Shown: positions 2,189 through 21,155 of the stretch, piece by piece
How the letters are laid out: each line of letters opens with the position of its first letter
How positions within the stretch are numbered: the first letter of the stretch is position 1
Assembly (NCBI GenBank): GCA_944385945.1
Contig: CALWZD010000070.1
Span: forward strand, 30,605-94,604
DNA length: 64,000 bases
DNA from: an uncultured Anaerofilum sp.
GTDB lineage: Bacteria; Bacillota; Clostridia; Oscillospirales; Ruminococcaceae
Direction: 5' to 3'
The notes under the pieces: model-generated
The model's input: the letters and a program-made list of their open reading frames with translations, nothing else
Told to the model about the DNA's origin: nothing
Database searches by the model: none
Program-made: the position numbers and the translations under genes

Positions 2189-2365
2189 TTACAGGTCGTC
2201 AGCATCTTGCTGGGGCATTTCATGCGGATTTTTCGGCAGACCGGTGTAACTTCCGTCGGGGTCAGCTTTGCTGGGGCGAGGGGTTGCGCAGCTTTCCACG
2301 ACCTCGTTATACAAATGCTTGGGGGGAAGATGGCGGTCATTCTGGTTGGTTCCGTTTGACAACAT
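2189..2365 (-). CDS. Small 58-aa protein ending DPDGSYTGLPKNPHEMPQQDADDL (not in the ORF track)
   Basis: AAAGGAG RBS 10 nt before ATG; stop next to the terminator; sigmaF/G-like promoter directly upstream; C-terminus resembles a clostridial hypothetical family as I recall it (DPxGSYTG...PxQDADDL). Confidence 0.8.
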   Translation of the reverse strand: MLSNGTNQNDRHLPPKHLYNEVVESCATPRPSKADPDGSYTGLPKNPHEMPQQDADDL

Positions 2366-2383
2366 TTCGCTTCAACTCCTTTC

Positions 2384-2418
2384 GCATACAGTATGCCCAG
2401 TGTGGGAATACTGTATAC
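2384..2418. promoter_or_regulatory. Overlapping divergent sigmaF/sigmaG-type promoters
   Basis: Plus strand GCATA-N15-GGGAATACTG; minus strand GTATA-N15-GGGCATACTG; both fit GYATA-N15-GGnnAnAHTR. Confidence 0.7.
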
Positions 2419-2443
2419 AATCAAGGGGAAAGGAGCAGATAAA

Positions 2444-3355
2444 ATGAGCCGTGTGCGGGCATTTTGGTTAAGTTTTTTGTTGAGTGCAGGCATTGTTATC
2501 CCGTTGTTGGGGTGTGTGGTACTCATGCAAGGAAAACGCATGAAAGAACAACAGGAGCAGCAGGTGGAAGCCGGAACTGCGGTACAGGGGGTGCCGATTG
2601 CATTGGCAACACCCGACGACCACATTGCGTGTCTGGCGGTAGTGGAAACCGAGCAGGAACCCATCTTTCTGCTGATAGGGCTGGATGCGGTGCAGGATAG
2701 GGTGGCAGTTCTGGGTTTTCCGTCACAAACGGTCATTCTTTCACCACAGGGAAGTAGTACACTGGGCGAAGAATGTGTACAGGCAGGGCCTGGCAGAGCG
2801 GCGCAGCTTTTGAGCGATACTTTGCAGTTGGAGATCCCGTATTACCTGCTGGTAGATGCGAATACACTTGCTTCGGCAGCTACCGATTGGCAAGCGGTCA
2901 CAGTGAATTTGTCGGGATATAACATTGACGGAGTCAGTGCGCAGGTAGGAAAAGCACCGGTATGTATGTTAGTGGCAGAACAGGCGGTGTCGCTACTGGA
3001 TGAATGGAAGCTGCAAAATGCGGCACGTTCCGACATGATGGCAAATATGATGGGCGAATTTTTGCTTTCGGCAATTTTAAATCAGCCGACCGCTGTGGCG
3101 GATGCTCTGCGGGATTGCAGCAGTAAAATGCTCACCACACTTACTTCGCAGGAGTTTTTGAAAATCGACCGCATCTGTGGGCTAATGAACAAGACCGAGC
3201 CGGAATTTTTACCGCAGCGGCTTGCAGGCAGCATGAACGGAACAAGGTTTGAACTGAACGAGGAGTCGGTGGCATTGGTACAGGAACTGTTTGAAAAATA
3301 TAAACAGGCGGATACGGACGAAGCAGAAATGACAACGCAAAGCGGACAGGAATAG
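2444..3355 (+). CDS. Membrane-anchored hypothetical protein, degenerate LCP (LytR-CpsA-Psr)-like
   Basis: N-terminal TM helix; LLIGLDA..DRVAVLGFPSQT and LSDTLQLEIPYYLLVD resemble the LCP core; RBS AAGGAG. Confidence 0.6.
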   Translation: MSRVRAFWLSFLLSAGIVIPLLGCVVLMQGKRMKEQQEQQVEAGTAVQGVPIALATPDDHIACLAVVETEQEPIFLLIGLDAVQDRVAVLGFPSQTVILSPQGSSTLGEECVQAGPGRAAQLLSDTLQLEIPYYLLVDANTLASAATDWQAVTVNLSGYNIDGVSAQVGKAPVCMLVAEQAVSLLDEWKLQNAARSDMMANMMGEFLLSAILNQPTAVADALRDCSSKMLTTLTSQEFLKIDRICGLMNKTEPEFLPQRLAGSMNGTRFELNEESVALVQELFEKYKQADTDEAEMTTQSGQE

Positions 3356-15068: not shown

Positions 15069-17003
15069 ATGATTCGTGTAGACCTGAAAGGCAACGTAAA
15101 AGAGTTCGAAGCAGGCATCAGTGCTGCCGAAGTGGCAAAAAGCATTGGCATGGGACTGTACAAATCGGCGTGTGCCGCAAAAGTGAATGGGCAAGTGTGC
15201 GATCTGCGTACCCAGCTGAACGGGGATTGCAGTTTGGAGATTTTGACCTTTGCCGATAAAGAGGGCAAAGAGGCATTTTGGCACACCGCAGCCCATGTGA
15301 TGGCACAAGCGATCCAGCACCTGTACCCCGAGGCACACTTCGGTATCGGCCCTGCATTGGAAAACGGCTGGTACTATGACGTTGGCGGAGTAAAGCCCTT
15401 TACCCCCGACCAGTTTGCTGCGATCGAGGCAGAGATGAAGAAAATCGCAAAGGAAGACCTGCCTTTGGAGCGCAAGGTCATCACTTTGGAAGAAGGCAGA
15501 GAGATCTTTGCACAGCAGCCTTATAAGTTAGAACTGCTCGAGGAGTATGCCGAAAAGGGAATGGAAGTTACTGTTTATGTACAGGGCGACTTTGCCGACC
15601 TGTGTGCAGGGCCTCACCTGATGAGTACCGCAGCGGTGAAAGCAGTACGCCTGTTGCAGGCGACCAGTGCATACTGGCGTGGTGATTCCAGCCGTGACAG
15701 CCTGTGCCGTGTATACGGTATTGCATTCCCAAAAGCAAGCGAGTTGGACGAGTATATCCAGCAGCAGGAAGAAGCCCGCAAACGTGACCACAACAAGATC
15801 GGACGTGAACTGGAATACTTCACCACCGTGGAGAGCATCGGTCAGGGTCTGCCCATTTTGCTGCCCAATGGTGCCCGCACCATCCAGTTGATGCAGCGTT
15901 GGGTAGAAGATACCGAGCAAAAACGTGGTTATCAGCTGACCAAAACCCCCTACATGGCAAAACGTGACCTCTACCGCATCAGTGGCCACTGGGATCACTA
16001 CCGTGACGGTATGTTCGTTTTGGGCGATGCAGACGACGAAACCAAAGAATGCTTTGCACTGCGTCCCATGACCTGCCCCTTCCAGTATCAGGTATTCCTC
16101 AACCGTAAACGTTCTTACCGTGACCTGCCCATGCGTTTGGGTGAAACTTCCACCCTGTTCCGCAACGAGGATTCCGGCGAGATGCATGGATTGATCCGTG
16201 TGCGTCAGTTCACCATCAGCGAGGGTCACCTCATCATCCGCCCCGAACAGTTGGAAGAAGAATTTGCAGGCTGCTTGGAACTGGCAAAAGAAATGCTGGA
16301 AACCTTGGGTCTGGCAGACGATGTAAGCTACCGCTTCAGCCAGTGGGACCCCAATCGTACCGATAAATACGAGGGTACTGCGGAGCAGTGGGAAGAAGCA
16401 CAGGGTCTGATGAAAAAGATTTTGGATGATTTGGGATTGGAATATGCGGTTGGTGTAGATGAGGCTGCATTCTATGGTCCCAAACTGGACATCCAGATCC
16501 GCAACGTGTTTGGAAAAGAGGATACCCTTATCACCATCCAGATCGATATGCTGCTGGCAGAGAAATTTGGAATGCACTACACCGACGTAGACGGCAGAGA
16601 GCGCACTCCTTATATCATCCACCGTACTTCCATCGGTTGCTACGAGCGCACTTTGGCTTTGCTGTTGGAGAAGTACGCAGGCGCAATGCCGGTTTGGCTG
16701 ATGCCCACACAGGCAATGGTTATCCCCATCAGCGAAAAGCACCACGACTATGCTGAAAAGGTACACAAGGCACTGGAAGCTGCCGGTGTGCGTGTCGAAA
16801 CTGACTACCGTGCAGAGAAGATGGGCTACAAGATTCGTGAGGCACAGCTGAAGAAGATCCCCTATATGCTGGTGGTAGGCGATAAAGAGGCAGAGGACGG
16901 CACAGTTGCTGTACGTGCCCGCAAAGAAGAAAAGGGCGGTACCAAGCCGCTGGCAGAGTTTGTGGCACAAATTTGTGCAGAAATCGACAGCAAAGAGCGA
17001 TAA
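15069..17003 (+). CDS. thrS: Threonyl-tRNA synthetase
   Basis: TGS domain, DLCAGPH, LRPMTCP, RVRQFT, AFYGPKLD, anticodon-binding domain; T-box upstream. Confidence 0.98.
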   Translation: MIRVDLKGNVKEFEAGISAAEVAKSIGMGLYKSACAAKVNGQVCDLRTQLNGDCSLEILTFADKEGKEAFWHTAAHVMAQAIQHLYPEAHFGIGPALENGWYYDVGGVKPFTPDQFAAIEAEMKKIAKEDLPLERKVITLEEGREIFAQQPYKLELLEEYAEKGMEVTVYVQGDFADLCAGPHLMSTAAVKAVRLLQATSAYWRGDSSRDSLCRVYGIAFPKASELDEYIQQQEEARKRDHNKIGRELEYFTTVESIGQGLPILLPNGARTIQLMQRWVEDTEQKRGYQLTKTPYMAKRDLYRISGHWDHYRDGMFVLGDADDETKECFALRPMTCPFQYQVFLNRKRSYRDLPMRLGETSTLFRNEDSGEMHGLIRVRQFTISEGHLIIRPEQLEEEFAGCLELAKEMLETLGLADDVSYRFSQWDPNRTDKYEGTAEQWEEAQGLMKKILDDLGLEYAVGVDEAAFYGPKLDIQIRNVFGKEDTLITIQIDMLLAEKFGMHYTDVDGRERTPYIIHRTSIGCYERTLALLLEKYAGAMPVWLMPTQAMVIPISEKHHDYAEKVHKALEAAGVRVETDYRAEKMGYKIREAQLKKIPYMLVVGDKEAEDGTVAVRARKEEKGGTKPLAEFVAQICAEIDSKER

Positions 17004-17152: not shown

Positions 17153-17228
17153 GAGCCATTAGCTCAGCCGGCAGAGCACCTGACTTTTAATCAGGGTGTC
17201 CGGAGTTCGAATCTCCGATGGCTCACCA
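17153..17228 (+). tRNA. tRNA-Lys (TTT)
   Basis: GAGCCATTAGCTCAG...CCTGACT-TTT-AATCAGG...GTTCGAATC...CACCA. Confidence 0.97.
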
Positions 17229-17336: not shown

Positions 17337-18011
17337 TTAATCGGGGCAGGAGGTTTTTTCTTTTGCAAGCAGGAGTGCTTGCTGTTGGTCGATTCCCCGT
17401 GCCAATGCACTGAATTCGCATCCACAGTATTCCTGCCGATATAAATGATGTTCCTGCGAAAGGGTGAGGCTGCGCTTATAGCCCTCTTTCTTTTTAAAAT
17501 CGCTTACCAGCCACTGTACTCCATACTTTTGCGCAAGCTCCAGCCCGATTTGATTCAAACGGGCTGCGTCCTTGTGCGGGCTGATCGAGAGCGTAGAGCA
17601 AAACCAGTCATAGCCGTTTTTTGCGGCATAAGCGGCTGCTTGTTCCAACCGCAGCCGATAACATACCGTGCAGCGACTGCCACGCTCAGGCTCGTTTTCT
17701 AACCCTTGGATGGCATTGTAAAATTCTTGCGGGTCGTAGGGAAGTTCGAGGGCTTCCACCTGCCCTTCGCCTGCGGTTTCCTGCAAAAAACGCACCAGTT
17801 CCTGTCCACGGCGGCGGTATTCCTGTTCAGGCCAGATGTTGGGATTATAGTACAGCACCCCAATATCGAATACCTTGCGAAGCTGCTCTAACACAGCACT
17901 GGAACAGGGACCACAGCAGGCATGAAGCAGCAGACGTGGACGGATGGGCTGTGCCTGAATGGAAGACAGGATGCTTTCCATTTCTTTTTGCCAGTTTTGA
18001 TTGTTTACCAT
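17337..18011 (-). CDS. queH: Epoxyqueuosine reductase QueH
   Basis: LLLHACCGPCS, YYNPNI, RCTVC, STLSISPHK, YRQEYCGCEFS. Confidence 0.93.
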   Translation of the reverse strand: MVNNQNWQKEMESILSSIQAQPIRPRLLLHACCGPCSSAVLEQLRKVFDIGVLYYNPNIWPEQEYRRRGQELVRFLQETAGEGQVEALELPYDPQEFYNAIQGLENEPERGSRCTVCYRLRLEQAAAYAAKNGYDWFCSTLSISPHKDAARLNQIGLELAQKYGVQWLVSDFKKKEGYKRSLTLSQEHHLYRQEYCGCEFSALARGIDQQQALLLAKEKTSCPD

Positions 18012-18150
18012 AATTAAAAAAATCCTTTCTGAAAAAAAGCAAAGTGCGTTTCGTGGGTTTTCGTTCCCTTTAGTCAATCTTTGCACAGAGTTTGCAGCCT
18101 GTTAAAACTCGCATCACACATTTGACATAATCGAATGCTATACTTATCCA

Positions 18151-18434
18151 CGTACTCAGGAGGAGGACAAAACCTCGTCCACTGGAAGATTGCCCCGGGT
18201 GGGAATTTCCGAAAAAGCATTTGATGGCGAACAAGCCAAAATGTCCGAGGGGGAAACAGCCCTCGGTGAGTGATACGTGCGGGCAGGGAAGTATCTCTGC
18301 AAGGCACCTTCGCTGCTCCGTTCCATGCCAGCCTTAGCAATAAGGAGAGAACGGACAGACCAACAATTCATCCGCTGTGCGGATCAAGATAGACGACAAA
18401 CGCTCACAGAGATTTTCTGTGGGCGTTTGTTTTT
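18151..18434 (+). ncRNA. Candidate structured non-coding RNA, family not recognised
   Basis: Extended -10 TGCTATACT (18136-18144), six consecutive hairpins, strong intrinsic terminator 18396-18434, no ORF with an RBS. Confidence 0.6.
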
Positions 18435-18842
18435 GCTGCAATGAAAATCGAACAAGTTATGCAAAGCTACCTTGTTTTCGATTATCAGTATACCACACTT
18501 ATCAAAGCAGAAAAAGCGGTTTTATACAAAGACAGGCAGCCAAAAAATGTCTGCGGTTTTGGATGATCTCAGGGAAAAAAGAGCCCTTGTATATGTAAAA
18601 AGGAAAAAGTTGGTTTGGGTTGGAATTTTTTTTGATAAAATCGACAAAACTTGGCTTTTTGTCAATTCCGCCGGGAATCGCATTGTAAAATCAAAAATAA
18701 ACATGATATAACTAGAATATATTTCATTGTACAAATGTAAAATGCAAGGATGAAATTTTTATCGCTGTCGAATAGACGCTTGAATTTATAGTTTACAAAC
18801 CAAATTCTCCGTTGCGCAGACAAGAAAAGGAGATCGACAACA

Positions 18843-21155
18843 ATGCATAGAAATCTATCACACGACCAACACGGCTTTACCATTCAGGAAATGCTGATCA
18901 CGGTCGCCATTATGGTCTGTTTGCTGGCGGTCACGATAGTGGGCATCGCTACATATGCGCAGCATCTGCAAATTACAGAACTGGATAACGCTGCTCGGCA
19001 AATTTATATGGCAGCACAAAACCGTGCTATTCTGTTAAAGAATGATCAGGCGTTGGAAGAATATATTATCAAGCAAAGTTCGGTTGCAGGAGAGCCTCCT
19101 TTGAACGAGATGCCCAATGTAGACAAAACGCCAAACAGTGATGTCACTACCCAGATCACGGCGTATTATGTTGCACATGATGATGAGCATATCCAGCAGC
19201 TTTTGCCGACCGGAAGTATCGACCCTGCCTTATGGGAAGGGGATTTCTACATCATTTACGAGCCGACGAGCGCAAGCGTTGTAGATGTGTTTTACTCAAA
19301 GAAAGAATTGCCGATCGAGGGCGACTTTGAAACATTTTACCGCAAATGGCGTGGATACGACAAAAGTGTTCGCATGAAAAACGATCCCATGATCGGTTAT
19401 TATGGCGGTGAAGCAGCAGACAGTGGCACGGCAATGGCTTTGCGTACACCCGTTATCAACATTTACAACGAGGAAACTTTGGAAGTAGAAGTCACCTACT
19501 GGGTTCCGAGTTCGCTGAATAATAAGGTGGACTTTAGCCTTACTTTCGAATATCAAGGCGAAAGCTGTGCATTGCCGGTCGATGATTTTGATAAGATCCT
19601 CGAATTTGATTATTATAGATACACAAAAACTTACCTGCTGGATTCGGTAGAGGAGGGCAAGCAGTTCTAAGATTTCCTTGATTTGCAATTTCCGGGGGAA
19701 TCGTTTATCCTTGGCAATGAGTTTACTGTCACAGCCGAAATCCAACCCGCCGAGGGGATAGGCGAAGTGACCGTAAACGGAGCCAAAAAGACAGCGACCG
19801 ACAACAGTTTGTTTGCTGCCACAAGCACTGCCGACCGTGCGGATGTTGCTTATATGCGCCATCTGCAAAATTTGGATGCTGATTTTTCGGGTGTACAGGG
19901 AAAGACCGCAGCGATGCAGACAAAAGACATCACCTGTGTGGCTGATTACGACTTCGACCCGATCGAAAACAGCGAATTGCAATCTTACGACGGACAAAAT
20001 TATCGGATCAGCGACCTGAATACACAGAAAACAGAAAACGCCGGCTTGTTTGGAAACTTTGCCGGAACCGAAACGAAAGCAAAAGAACTGGTCGATGTTT
20101 GCCTTGTAAATGCACAGGTACAAGCGACGCAAAATGCCGGTGTACTGGTGGGCAATGGACAATACTTGACTTTGAGCGGCAGTGAAGTGTACTGGGAAAA
20201 CCGCTCGGCAGCTGCGACCAACCTGCGTGATATTTTGGGCAACAGTACCGATGGGCTGAACTATAAAGTGTTGAGTGACCAATTTGCCGGTGGCTTGGCA
20301 GGTGCTCTAAGCAACTCCACCATTAAAACAAGTTTTGCTTCCAGCTTGTTTAACGGCAAAACAGTTGGAGGCTTGGTTGGTGATGCCCAGAATGTTACCG
20401 TTTCGGCTAGCTATGCAGACGCATATTTGCAGGGCGAACGGAGTGGCGGTTTGTTTGGTGACAATACATCTGCCATTGCAAACACTGTTTCGGACAGCTA
20501 TGCGGTTGGCTATGCCGAGTTGGAAAACAACAGTGTTGCTGCGGGTATTGGTATGGGGAATAATACTATAACCCGTTGTTACAGTGCGCTGCTTTATTCG
20601 GGAGAGGGAACAAAATATGCTTTGACCCAAAGCGGAAGTTGTACCGATGCTTATTATTTGGAGGCACAGGAAGTGCAGACGAATACCAACGGTGCAGTTT
20701 CTGTTTCGTATGACGATTTGACCAATCCCACAAAATGGAGTGCATTGTTTGGCAGCGAGCATATTTTTGCCGAAAAATCTTCTGTGGCTTCGCACCCCTA
20801 TAACCTGCAAACCAGCCTGCTGCTCGATCGCTACAACTATCCCGGTTTGCACGACATCGACCATTGGGGCGATTGGGGCGCACGTTTCCGCAATGGAAGC
20901 CTCGTCTATTATGAGGTGTATGACGAAGGCAGCGGAAACACAAGCTATGGCTTCAGTGGCGGTGGCATCGACCTGTTGAAAAACGATAAGCCCATTTTGA
21001 AAGATGGCTATGCCGTTGCAAGCGACAGCGTAAATGCTACCATTGATACCACGCTGACCATTGTGTACGAAACACAAGGTGGAACCAACACATTAACAAA
21101 AGAGTACAAAAATAATCCCGCACAAGACCAACTGCCGGTTTATACGGTGTCTTCT
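18843..21155 (+). pseudogene. Large prepilin-type (N-methylation) adhesin-like protein with GLUG-like repeats; in-frame TAA at 19668-19670 and truncated C-terminus
   Basis: QHG|FTIQEMLITVAI type IV prepilin motif; ORFs 18843-19670 and 19683-21575 share one frame across a single TAA; AGLFG/AGVLVG/AGGLAG/VGGLVG repeats. Confidence 0.8.

What the first reader, a model, noticed from the sequence alone, without database searches (positions are those of the whole stretch)
18151..18434. Free-standing, densely structured ~280-nt RNA candidate of unrecognised family
Seen: an extended -10 (TGCTATACT) puts +1 near 18151. Back-to-back stems follow: GGAAGATT..AATTTCC (18184-18210), GCATTT-TGGC..GCCA-AAATGT (18217-18244), CCGAGGG-G(GAAA)C-AG-CCCTCGG (18245-18266), GTGC-GCAGGGA..TCTCTGC-GCAC (18277-18307), TCCGTTC-CCTTA(GCAA)TAAGG-GAACGGA (18317-18355) and ATCCGC..GCGGAT (18370-18384), then a 15-bp terminator with a U-tract. 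The first bases CGTACTCA can pair with TGAGTGATACG (18267-18277), closing a multi-way junction. Two GNRA tetraloops support RNA function on this strand. There is no RBS-led ORF, and the region is GC-rich between AT-rich flanks. I see no RNase P, tmRNA, SRP, 6S, T-box or common riboswitch signature. Inference: an undescribed large ncRNA (scaffold, ribozyme or protein sponge; several GGA motifs are present), or a terminator-coupled leader for the pilus locus about 400 nt downstream.
Basis: partly seen in the sequence, partly recalled or inferred. Interest (0 to 1): 0.78.

Follow-up and report, generated by a model that had tools for sequence, protein, structure and literature searches.

The report
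New structured RNA gene beside queH
The stretch is a real, previously uncatalogued non-coding RNA gene of about 285-300 bases, conserved with compensating base-pair changes in at least 12 genera of one family of gut Clostridia; its function is still unknown.

Summary
No Rfam 15 family matches, here or at nine homologous loci.

Homologs occur as one copy per genome in 20 genomes of 12 genera of one GTDB family, whose members are deposited as "uncultured Gemmiger sp.". That covers all 5 species of the window's genus. None turned up in 143 genomes of 29 sister families.

The universal core is about 90 nt (18313-18395):
- a three-part hairpin, P5, with an invariant asymmetric loop AUGC(C/G)AG
- a linker AC(C)AAC
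- hairpin P6
- a tail UUnnAUAGAU

Helix sequences are replaced wholesale but stay complementary. The 5' domain (18151-18307) varies by lineage.

A conserved ~55-bp promoter block precedes the RNA and a terminator follows it in every arrangement, including one genome where the unit is inverted. The usual downstream gene (DUF896) has its own promoter.

So this is a free-standing RNA gene. It is not a leader of the pilus locus, which lies downstream only in this genome. SRP and 6S RNAs lie elsewhere in the genome.

The parts
18091..18144 (+). Conserved promoter block: TTTGCA (18091-18096), -35-like TTAAAA (18102-18107), TG-extended -10-like CATAAT (18126-18131), and a second -10-like TATACT (18139-18144, preceded by TGC).
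   Evidence: The same elements with the same 5/18/7-nt spacing occur in 18 homologous loci of 11 genera. The promoter scan finds TTAAAA-18-CATAAT with TG. A near-identical -35/TG/-10 arrangement drives a protein gene elsewhere in the genome. Which hexamer is used is not known.
18151..18277 (+). Lineage-variable 5' domain. Helix P1 (CGTACTCA 18151-18158 with TGAGTGATACG 18267-18277, leaving a 3-nt bulge) closes four hairpins at 18159-18180, 18183-18211, 18217-18244 and 18245-18266.
   Evidence: Minimum-free-energy fold. It is kept within the genus, with double changes in several pairs. Other genera have one or two hairpins or none here, so it is not part of the universal core.
18277..18307 (+). 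P4 hairpin: GTGC/GCAC outer stem, GCAGGGA/TCTCTGC inner stem, AGUA loop.
   Evidence: An A-R-U-A loop and complementary stems are kept in three genera, with GUGC/GCAC changing to GGCC/GGCU. A G.U pair sits inside the stem in 8 of 11 sequences, which supports the + strand. Other genera have a different hairpin in this place.
18313..18358 (+). P5, the most conserved element: CUG/CAG (P5a), CCGUUC/GAACGG (P5b), asymmetric internal loop CAUGCCAG (18324-18331), and terminal hairpin CCUUA-GCAA-UAAGG (P5c).
   Evidence: It is found in all 20 homologs. P5b and P5c sequences are replaced wholesale but stay complementary. The loop AUGC(C/G)AG is nearly invariant.
18359..18395 (+). Conserved linker ACCAAC (18359-18364), P6 hairpin ATCCGC/GCGGAT (18370-18384), and conserved 3' tail ending AUAGA (18385-18395).
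   Evidence: Linker AC(C)AAC and tail UUnnAUAnAU are conserved across genera. P6 covaries, with 15 different complementary stem sequences among the 19 homologs that have a P6.
18396..18434 (+). Intrinsic terminator: 16-bp stem, 5-nt loop, U-tract.
   Evidence: A GC-rich hairpin follows the RNA in the other genera examined, with a T-run in most; the four genomes of genus g112 lack the T-run.
17337..18011 (-). queH (epoxyqueuosine reductase), the divergent neighbour. It is context, not part of the RNA.
   Evidence: Pfam PF02677, E = 1.5e-67. queH lies within about 2 kb of the RNA in 10 of the 12 genera.

Best explanation
This is an independent gene for a stable, highly structured non-coding RNA. 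It is about 285-300 nt here and about 200-260 nt in other genera. It founds an uncatalogued RNA family confined, as far as searched, to one clade of a single family of gut Clostridia (NCBI Oscillospiraceae, Gemmiger relatives).

Shown by sequence comparison: a conserved housekeeping-type promoter block lies upstream, and an intrinsic terminator ends the unit.

The functional part is a ~90-nt core:
- hairpin P5, with an invariant purine/pyrimidine-mixed asymmetric loop AUGC(C/G)AG
- the single-stranded linker AC(C)AAC
- hairpin P6
- the tail UUnnAUAGAU

The 5' domain and P4 are lineage-specific peripheral elements.

Inferred, not shown: the RNA acts in trans. Its invariant unpaired nucleotides, held in place by covarying helices, would form a binding surface for a protein, or less likely a small ligand. 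It would not act by regulating a neighbouring gene in cis. The tight synteny queH | RNA | DUF896 is read as inherited gene order in the clade.
For: Structure:
- z = -5.4 against shuffles.
- The same P5-linker-P6-tail architecture is predicted independently for each of 17 and then 20 homologs.

Covariation:
- On the 17-sequence model alignment, 80.5% of cells pair against 71.5% in shuffles (0 of 500 reach it).
- 15 of 21 pairs show changes on both sides.
- The covariation score is 0.335 against 0.182, and slid controls reach at most 60.5% paired.
- Within the genus, 12 of 56 pairs have double changes.
- P5b occurs as CCGUUC/GAACGG, CCCGCCC/GGGCGGG, GCCGCCC/GGGCGGC, CCCACCU/AGGUGGG, CCCGGC/GCCGGG and CCUUCGCC/GGCGAAGG.

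Not coding:
- Indels of 1, 2 and 4 nt separate species of one genus.
- There is no ribosome-binding site.

Not a known RNA:
- No Rfam 15 hit at gathering score.
- No hit at E <= 10 on the window's region 18000-18900.
- No hit at E <= 5 at the RNA position in nine homologous loci.
- SRP and 6S RNAs are found elsewhere in five of these genomes.

Distribution:
- One copy per genome.
- Present in 5/5, 4/4 and 2/2 species of three genera.
- Hits in 13 of 150 sampled genera of the family, one of them judged doubtful.
- 0 of 143 genomes of 29 other families of the order.

Independent unit:
- The promoter block has fixed spacing in 18 loci.
- A terminator follows the RNA.
- The DUF896 gene downstream has its own TTGCGT-N17-TG-n-TAnAAT promoter.
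- The unit is inverted between queH and DUF896 in G077, faces a convergent gene in G096, and is separated from queH by another gene in G118 and G073.

Strand:
- Promoter and terminator sit on the same sides in every arrangement.
- G.U pairs lie inside P4 in 8 of 11 sequences and in P1 in 3 of 4.
Against:
- The reverse strand of the core folds on average 3.9 kcal/mol better (Wilcoxon p = 0.004).
- In a strand-neutral count, A.C positions next to the core helices (13) outnumber G.U positions (6). The core therefore gives no wobble evidence for the + strand.
- The two -10-like hexamers cannot be told apart without a mapped 5' end.
- The protein-binding mode of action is a guess from the conservation pattern; no partner is identified.
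- The strong linkage to queH (10 of 12 genera) could reflect function rather than inherited order.
Confidence: 0.72

Rival explanations
1. It is a trans-acting base-pairing small RNA. A pyrimidine-rich single-stranded stretch pairs with Shine-Dalgarno regions of target mRNAs, as in C-rich sRNAs of Firmicutes. The structured part only provides stability or protein binding.
For: Five genera carry a CU-rich stretch between the 3' tail and the terminator, with motifs such as UCCUCCU and CUCC (G129, G118, G117, G073, G096). The linker plus the P6 5' strand is C/U-rich in many members. The RNA has its own promoter and terminator, like classical sRNAs.
Against: The CU-rich stretch is absent from the window's genus and from g162, where the terminator follows the tail directly. 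The invariant nucleotides lie in an internal loop and junctions framed by covarying helices, not in an accessible seed. No target was sought.
Confidence: 0.15
2. The element is read on the minus strand, as a long structured 5' leader (riboswitch-like) of queH.
For: queH is the adjacent divergent gene in 17 genomes of 7 genera and lies within 2 kb in 10 of 12 genera. The minus strand folds as well or better. A.C positions next to the core helices would be G.U pairs on that strand. Riboswitches for queuosine genes are known in this bacterial group, for example preQ1-III (review PMC11625349, listed).
Against: - In G118 and G073 a gene of opposite sense lies between the element and queH.
- In G077 the element lies downstream of queH.
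- In G096 a convergent transporter gene separates them.
- In G129 and G062 they are on different contigs.
- The terminator-like hairpin with its T-run would sit at the 5' end of such a leader.
- P4 would carry an internal A.C mismatch in 8 of 11 sequences.
- No preQ1 model matches.
Confidence: 0.07
3. It is a cis-acting leader or attenuator for the gene downstream on the same strand: the pilus locus here, DUF896 elsewhere. The terminator would be the regulated switch.
For: A terminator directly follows the structured part. A DUF896 gene follows in the same orientation in 11 genomes.
Against: - The pilus genes follow only in this genome, 400 nt away.
- DUF896 has its own -35/-10 immediately after the terminator.
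- The RNA is on the opposite strand to DUF896 in G077 and faces a convergent gene in G096.
- In genus g112 the terminator lies 60-80 nt beyond the conserved part, with no conserved alternative pairing.
- The window's genome keeps the RNA without DUF896 beside it.
Confidence: 0.04
4. It is a chance GC-rich spacer or a repeat or mobile element (REP/MITE-like).
For: It is GC-rich between AT-rich flanks and full of hairpins.
Against: It is single copy in every genome. It is conserved at a syntenic site across 12 genera with compensatory changes and invariant loop nucleotides.
Confidence: 0.02

Closest known systems
raiA motif RNA (Rfam RF03072) and similar orphan structured ncRNAs of Firmicutes
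   Same: It is a free-standing RNA gene of about 200 nt or more in Clostridia. It has several covarying helices and invariant nucleotides in internal loops and junctions. It has its own promoter and terminator, and its biochemical function is unknown (raiA: PMC10861870, abstract seen).
   Different: There is no sequence or structure match to the raiA model or any other Rfam model. The distribution is far narrower, one clade of one family. The architecture differs, and the 5' half is lineage-variable.
preQ1-III riboswitch (Rfam RF02680)
   Same: It is an RNA restricted to the same bacterial group (Faecalibacterium/Subdoligranulum relatives) and found next to a queuosine-pathway gene.
   Different: From the literature, preQ1-III is a ~100-nt pseudoknot in the 5' UTR of queT on the coding strand. 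This RNA is on the strand opposite to queH, has its own terminator, moves independently of queH in five genera, and matches no preQ1 model.
6S RNA and Bacillus-type (large) SRP RNA
   Same: They are housekeeping RNAs of similar length (190-270 nt) with their own promoters and terminators.
   Different: Both are present elsewhere in these genomes above the Rfam cut-offs. This RNA is neither a long interrupted rod nor an Alu plus S-domain fold.
C-rich base-pairing sRNAs of Firmicutes (RoxS/RsaE type)
   Same: It is an independent sRNA gene ended by a terminator, and some members have a pyrimidine-rich single-stranded stretch.
   Different: The pyrimidine stretch is not universal. Conservation centres on a structured core rather than on seeds. 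No Rfam sRNA model matches.

Membership tests
Any Rfam 15 family (4227 models) | Covariance-model score at or above the family's gathering score | tested here: not met
   The whole window gives only four tRNAs. In 18000-18900 at E <= 10 there is only noise at or beyond the terminator, best 22 bits against a cut-off of 59. Nine homologous loci at E <= 5 give nothing at the RNA position.
SRP RNA (RF00169 / RF01854) | Match to the SRP model, being the genome's only SRP RNA | tested here: not met
   SRP RNA is found on another contig of G000 (C37) and in G003, G004, G115 and G170, above the cut-off.
6S RNA (RF00013) | Match to the 6S model; a rod with a central bubble | tested here: not met
   6S RNA is found elsewhere in the same five genomes, above the cut-off. 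The fold here is a multi-hairpin array.
preQ1 riboswitches (classes I-III) | Aptamer model match, and location in the 5' UTR of a queuosine gene on the same strand | tested here: not met
   There is no model match. The RNA is on the opposite strand to queH, has its own terminator, and its position relative to queH varies.
Cis-regulatory leader / attenuator | The same downstream gene in the same orientation, with no promoter in between | tested here: not met
   The downstream genes differ: pilus locus, DUF896, or a convergent transporter. DUF896 has its own promoter. The unit is inverted in G077.
Independent small-RNA gene | Own promoter upstream | tested here: inconclusive
   A conserved block with -35-like and two -10-like hexamers travels with the RNA in 18 loci. 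No transcription start data were available.
Independent small-RNA gene | Own intrinsic terminator | tested here: met
   A 16-bp stem plus U-tract lies at 18396-18434. Equivalent hairpins occur in the other genera; the four genomes of genus g112 lack a clear U-tract.
Conserved structured RNA | Base pairs kept through compensatory changes, beyond controls | tested here: met
   0 of 500 shuffles reach the observed pairing, double-change counts or covariation score, and slid controls are lower. R-scape was not available.
REP / MITE-like repeat | Many dispersed copies per genome | tested here: not met
   There is one copy per genome.

The most novel reading that the evidence does not exclude
The ~90-nt core (P5 with the invariant AUGC(C/G)AG loop, the ACAAC linker, P6 and the AUAGAU tail) is a new ligand-binding or catalytic RNA fold that works as a free-standing trans-acting sensor. 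It might be tied to queuosine/tRNA metabolism, given its persistent place beside queH, and be switched on by a dedicated regulator that binds the unusually conserved promoter block.
Probability: 0.08. Interest if true: 0.85.

Novelty: new variant of a known kind. Interest (0 to 1): 0.5.

Why it matters
Large structured bacterial RNAs with invariant loop nucleotides have repeatedly turned out to be ribozymes, riboswitches or protein regulators. This one is found in relatives of Gemmiger, Faecalibacterium and Subdoligranulum, which are abundant gut Clostridia in which almost no regulatory RNAs have been studied.

The work here provides a defined family of 20 members, with a consensus core, a conserved promoter and clear boundaries. 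That makes a deletion, pull-down or structure-probing experiment straightforward. It also adds a candidate family to RNA catalogues.

Its narrow distribution and unknown function keep the immediate importance moderate.

Tried and rejected

2. Whole-collection pattern scans:
- Genome contigs returned two real Gemmiger loci and two chance hits.
- Metagenome contigs returned eight chance hits only.

3. A long-range helix between the conserved 5' box (UAUnCUAUAA) and the 3' tail (AUAGAU) looked attractive in several species. It was tested by duplex energies against 1000 shuffles per species and is not supported (Fisher p = 0.125 over 10 genera).

4. Strand assignment from wobble pairs in the core:
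- The imperfect model alignment was uninformative: 23 G.U against 26 A.C cells.
- The strand-neutral count gave 6 against 13.
- Energies favour the G/U-rich minus strand.
- The strand call therefore rests on P4 and P1 wobbles and on gene organisation.

5. Weak model hits rejected as chance or doubtful:
- G093 is a plain terminator resembling P4.
- G152 lacks P5.
- G041 lies just after the ribosomal protein S12 gene.
- G112 has the block, P6 and tail but a divergent P5, and is counted only as possible.

6. A search for a pseudoknot partner of the AUGCCAG loop, by eye across variants, found none.

7. Comparison of the promoter block with sporulation sigma-factor consensus sequences, recalled from memory, gave no convincing fit. 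A second site in the genome shows the TTnAAA / TG / CATAAT arrangement in front of an ordinary protein gene.

8. Literature searches for a queH- or DUF896-linked RNA motif found nothing. The supplements of the human-microbiome RNA catalogue (PMC8040213) were only partly searchable: the first 200 of 408 files.

9. Earlier notes of this scan contained nothing on this RNA.

Full report
**What is in the window**

- TGCTATACT at 18136-18144.
- A closing helix P1 between CGTACTCA (18151-18158) and TGAGTGATACG (18267-18277).
- Hairpins at 18159-18180, 18184-18210, 18217-18244 and 18245-18266.
- P4 at 18277-18307, P5 at 18313-18358 and P6 at 18370-18384.
- A 16-bp terminator stem (18396-18430) followed by a T-run.

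The minimum-free-energy fold reproduces this layout at -113.2 kcal/mol, against -85 +/- 5.2 for dinucleotide shuffles (z = -5.38). The reverse complement folds nearly as well (z = -5.15), so folding energy alone does not give the strand.

The neighbours are queH on the minus strand (17337-18011; Pfam PF02677, E = 1.5e-67) and, 400 nt downstream, a pilin-like gene and a prepilin-peptidase fusion.

**Known families**

- Rfam 15 finds only four tRNAs in the window.
- A permissive scan of 18000-18900 gives only noise around the terminator.
- A permissive scan of nine homologous loci gives nothing at the RNA position.
- SRP RNA (both models) and 6S RNA are present elsewhere in this genome and in four relatives, above the curated cut-offs. 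This is therefore not a divergent housekeeping RNA.
- Literature searches for an RNA linked to queH or DUF896 found nothing.

**Homologs**

BLAST found 79-80% identical stretches in three other species of the genus. I then built three covariance models in turn.
- The first, built from the genus alone, reached a second genus. Public records of that genus are titled "uncultured Gemmiger sp.".
- The second and third reached more genera, partly by scanning at full sensitivity the DNA around queH in 25 related genomes.

I accept 20 members in 12 genera:
- all 5 species of the window's genus
- 4 of 4 species in g112
- 2 of 2 species in g162
- one genome each in nine further genera

Hits I excluded or discounted:
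- One more genome (G112) is only possible.
- One hit (G041) is doubtful.
- Two early hits (G093, G152) were chance.

Each genome has one copy. With the third model, 13 of 150 sampled genera of the family were hit, including the doubtful G041. This figure was obtained under the stricter filters and is a lower bound. There were no hits in 143 genomes of 29 other families of the order.

Exact-pattern scans of the big collections added two Gemmiger records and otherwise only chance matches.

**Anatomy of the family**

The part shared by all members is about 90 nt (window 18313-18395), in this order:
- A-CUG(G), the 5' strand of P5a.
- A 6-9 bp helix, P5b.
- An asymmetric internal loop reading AUGC(C/G)AG on the 5' side and 1-3 nt on the 3' side.
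- A terminal hairpin, P5c.
- (C)CAG, which closes P5a.
- A single-stranded AC(C)AAC linker.
- Hairpin P6.
- A tail UUnnAUAnAU.

Each of the 20 cores, folded on its own, gives this same architecture.

The helices change sequence completely while staying complementary:
- P5b occurs as CCGUUC/GAACGG, CCCGCCC/GGGCGGG, GCCGCCC/GGGCGGC, CCCACCU/AGGUGGG, CCCGGC/GCCGGG and CCUUCGCC/GGCGAAGG.
- P5c and P6 each have more than ten different complementary versions.

On the 17-sequence model alignment, which still has some register errors:
- 80.5% of cells pair, against 71.5% in shuffles (0 of 500 reach it).
- 15 of 21 pairs carry changes on both sides.
- The covariation score is 0.335 against 0.182.
- Sliding the partners drops pairing to 60% or less.

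Within the genus, 12 of 56 pairs have double changes. Indels of 1, 2 and 4 nt between species rule out a coding reading.

Two regions are not universal:
- P4 keeps an A-R-U-A loop in three genera and is a different hairpin elsewhere.
- The 5' domain ranges from four hairpins closed by P1 in the window's genus, through two small hairpins, to none.

The GNRA loops and GGA motifs belong to the variable parts or are not conserved.

**A transcription unit of its own**

A ~55-bp block precedes the RNA in 18 loci with fixed spacing: TTTGCA, 5 nt, TTnAnA, 18 nt, CA(C/T)AAT (mostly preceded by TG), 7 nt, TAnnnT. P1 or its equivalent starts 6-8 nt after the last hexamer.

An almost identical TTGAAA / TG / CATAAT arrangement sits before a protein gene elsewhere in the genome. 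The upstream pair therefore looks like an ordinary extended -10 promoter. Which hexamer sets the start, about 18138 or about 18151, cannot be decided without 5'-end data.

A GC-rich hairpin follows the RNA in the other genera examined, mostly with a T-run.

In 12 genomes a small DUF896 (YnzC-like) gene follows. It has its own TTGCGT-N17-TG-n-TAnAAT promoter, which overlaps the terminator's T-run.

The block-RNA-terminator unit keeps its internal order wherever it lies:
- divergent from queH in 7 genera
- separated from queH by another gene in G118 and G073
- inverted between queH and DUF896 in G077
- followed by a convergent transporter gene in G096
- on a different contig from queH in G129 and G062

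This excludes a leader for the pilus genes, which follow only in this genome, and a leader for DUF896. It also argues strongly against a minus-strand leader of queH.

**Strand**

The gene organisation gives the + strand. G.U pairs inside P4 (8 of 11 sequences) and in P1 (3 of 4) agree with it.

The core itself is almost purely Watson-Crick, and its wobble evidence does not help:
- 23 G.U against 26 A.C cells on the imperfect alignment.
- 6 against 13 in a strand-neutral count.
- The G/U-rich minus strand folds 3.9 kcal/mol better on average.

I put the + strand at roughly 85-90%.

**What it does**

Nothing here shows function. The conservation pattern is invariant unpaired nucleotides framed by helices that covary freely, with peripheral domains that come and go. 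That is the pattern of RNAs that present a defined three-dimensional surface to a protein or a ligand, rather than of seed-driven base-pairing sRNAs. I therefore favour a trans-acting protein-binding RNA. This step is inference.

A base-pairing role is the main rival. Five genera carry an anti-Shine-Dalgarno-like CU-rich stretch between tail and terminator, but the window's genus and g162 lack it.

The persistent neighbourhood of queH is most simply inherited gene order, because five genera break it. A functional tie to queuosine metabolism is not excluded.

**Verdict**

This is a real, conserved RNA gene family that is not in Rfam and that I did not find described.

It is a new family of a familiar kind (orphan structured bacterial ncRNA), narrowly distributed and of unknown function, so interest is moderate.

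Noticed in passing
L074 (G129), L039 (G118), L037 (G117), L035 (G073), L030 (G096): the 20-40 nt between the RNA's 3' tail and its terminator: In five genera a pyrimidine-rich, anti-Shine-Dalgarno-like stretch (UCCUCCU, CUCC and UUCCCC motifs) sits between the conserved tail and the terminator. It is absent from the window's genus and from g162.
   Followed up: partly
window 18435-18842: In 12 related genomes a DUF896/YnzC-like gene with its own promoter follows the RNA. Here that gene is missing, and an AT-rich 400-nt spacer leads to the pilus-like locus. This suggests a rearrangement or insertion at this point in this genome only.
   Followed up: partly
L073/L044 (G077): The whole promoter-RNA unit lies inverted between queH and the DUF896 gene. 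This member has no recognisable P6 hairpin or AUAGA tail.
   Followed up: partly
G000 contig C62: 6266-6296 (-) and 33465-33495 (+) (loci L078, L079): Two identical copies of a promoter-like 31-mer lie in inverted orientation about 27 kb apart on one contig. One copy precedes a membrane-protein gene that I take to encode a Na/Pi-cotransporter-like protein (not searched against Pfam). This may be a large inverted duplication.
   Followed up: no
queH matches (e.g. G129, G112, G151, G156, G018, G081): Several queH matches in related genomes contain one or two in-frame stop codons (TGA or TAA). These may be broken genes, alignment overhang or recoding.
   Followed up: no
L039 (G118) 2215-3170 and L035 (G073) about 500-1260: In two genera an extra gene has been inserted between queH and the RNA, co-oriented with the RNA. 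By eye these look like an auxin-efflux-carrier-type transporter and an HD-domain-like protein; neither was searched against Pfam.
   Followed up: no
window 17153-17225: A tRNA gene (anticodon loop CUUUUAA, which reads as tRNA-Lys UUU) lies between thrS (15069-17003) and queH.
   Followed up: no
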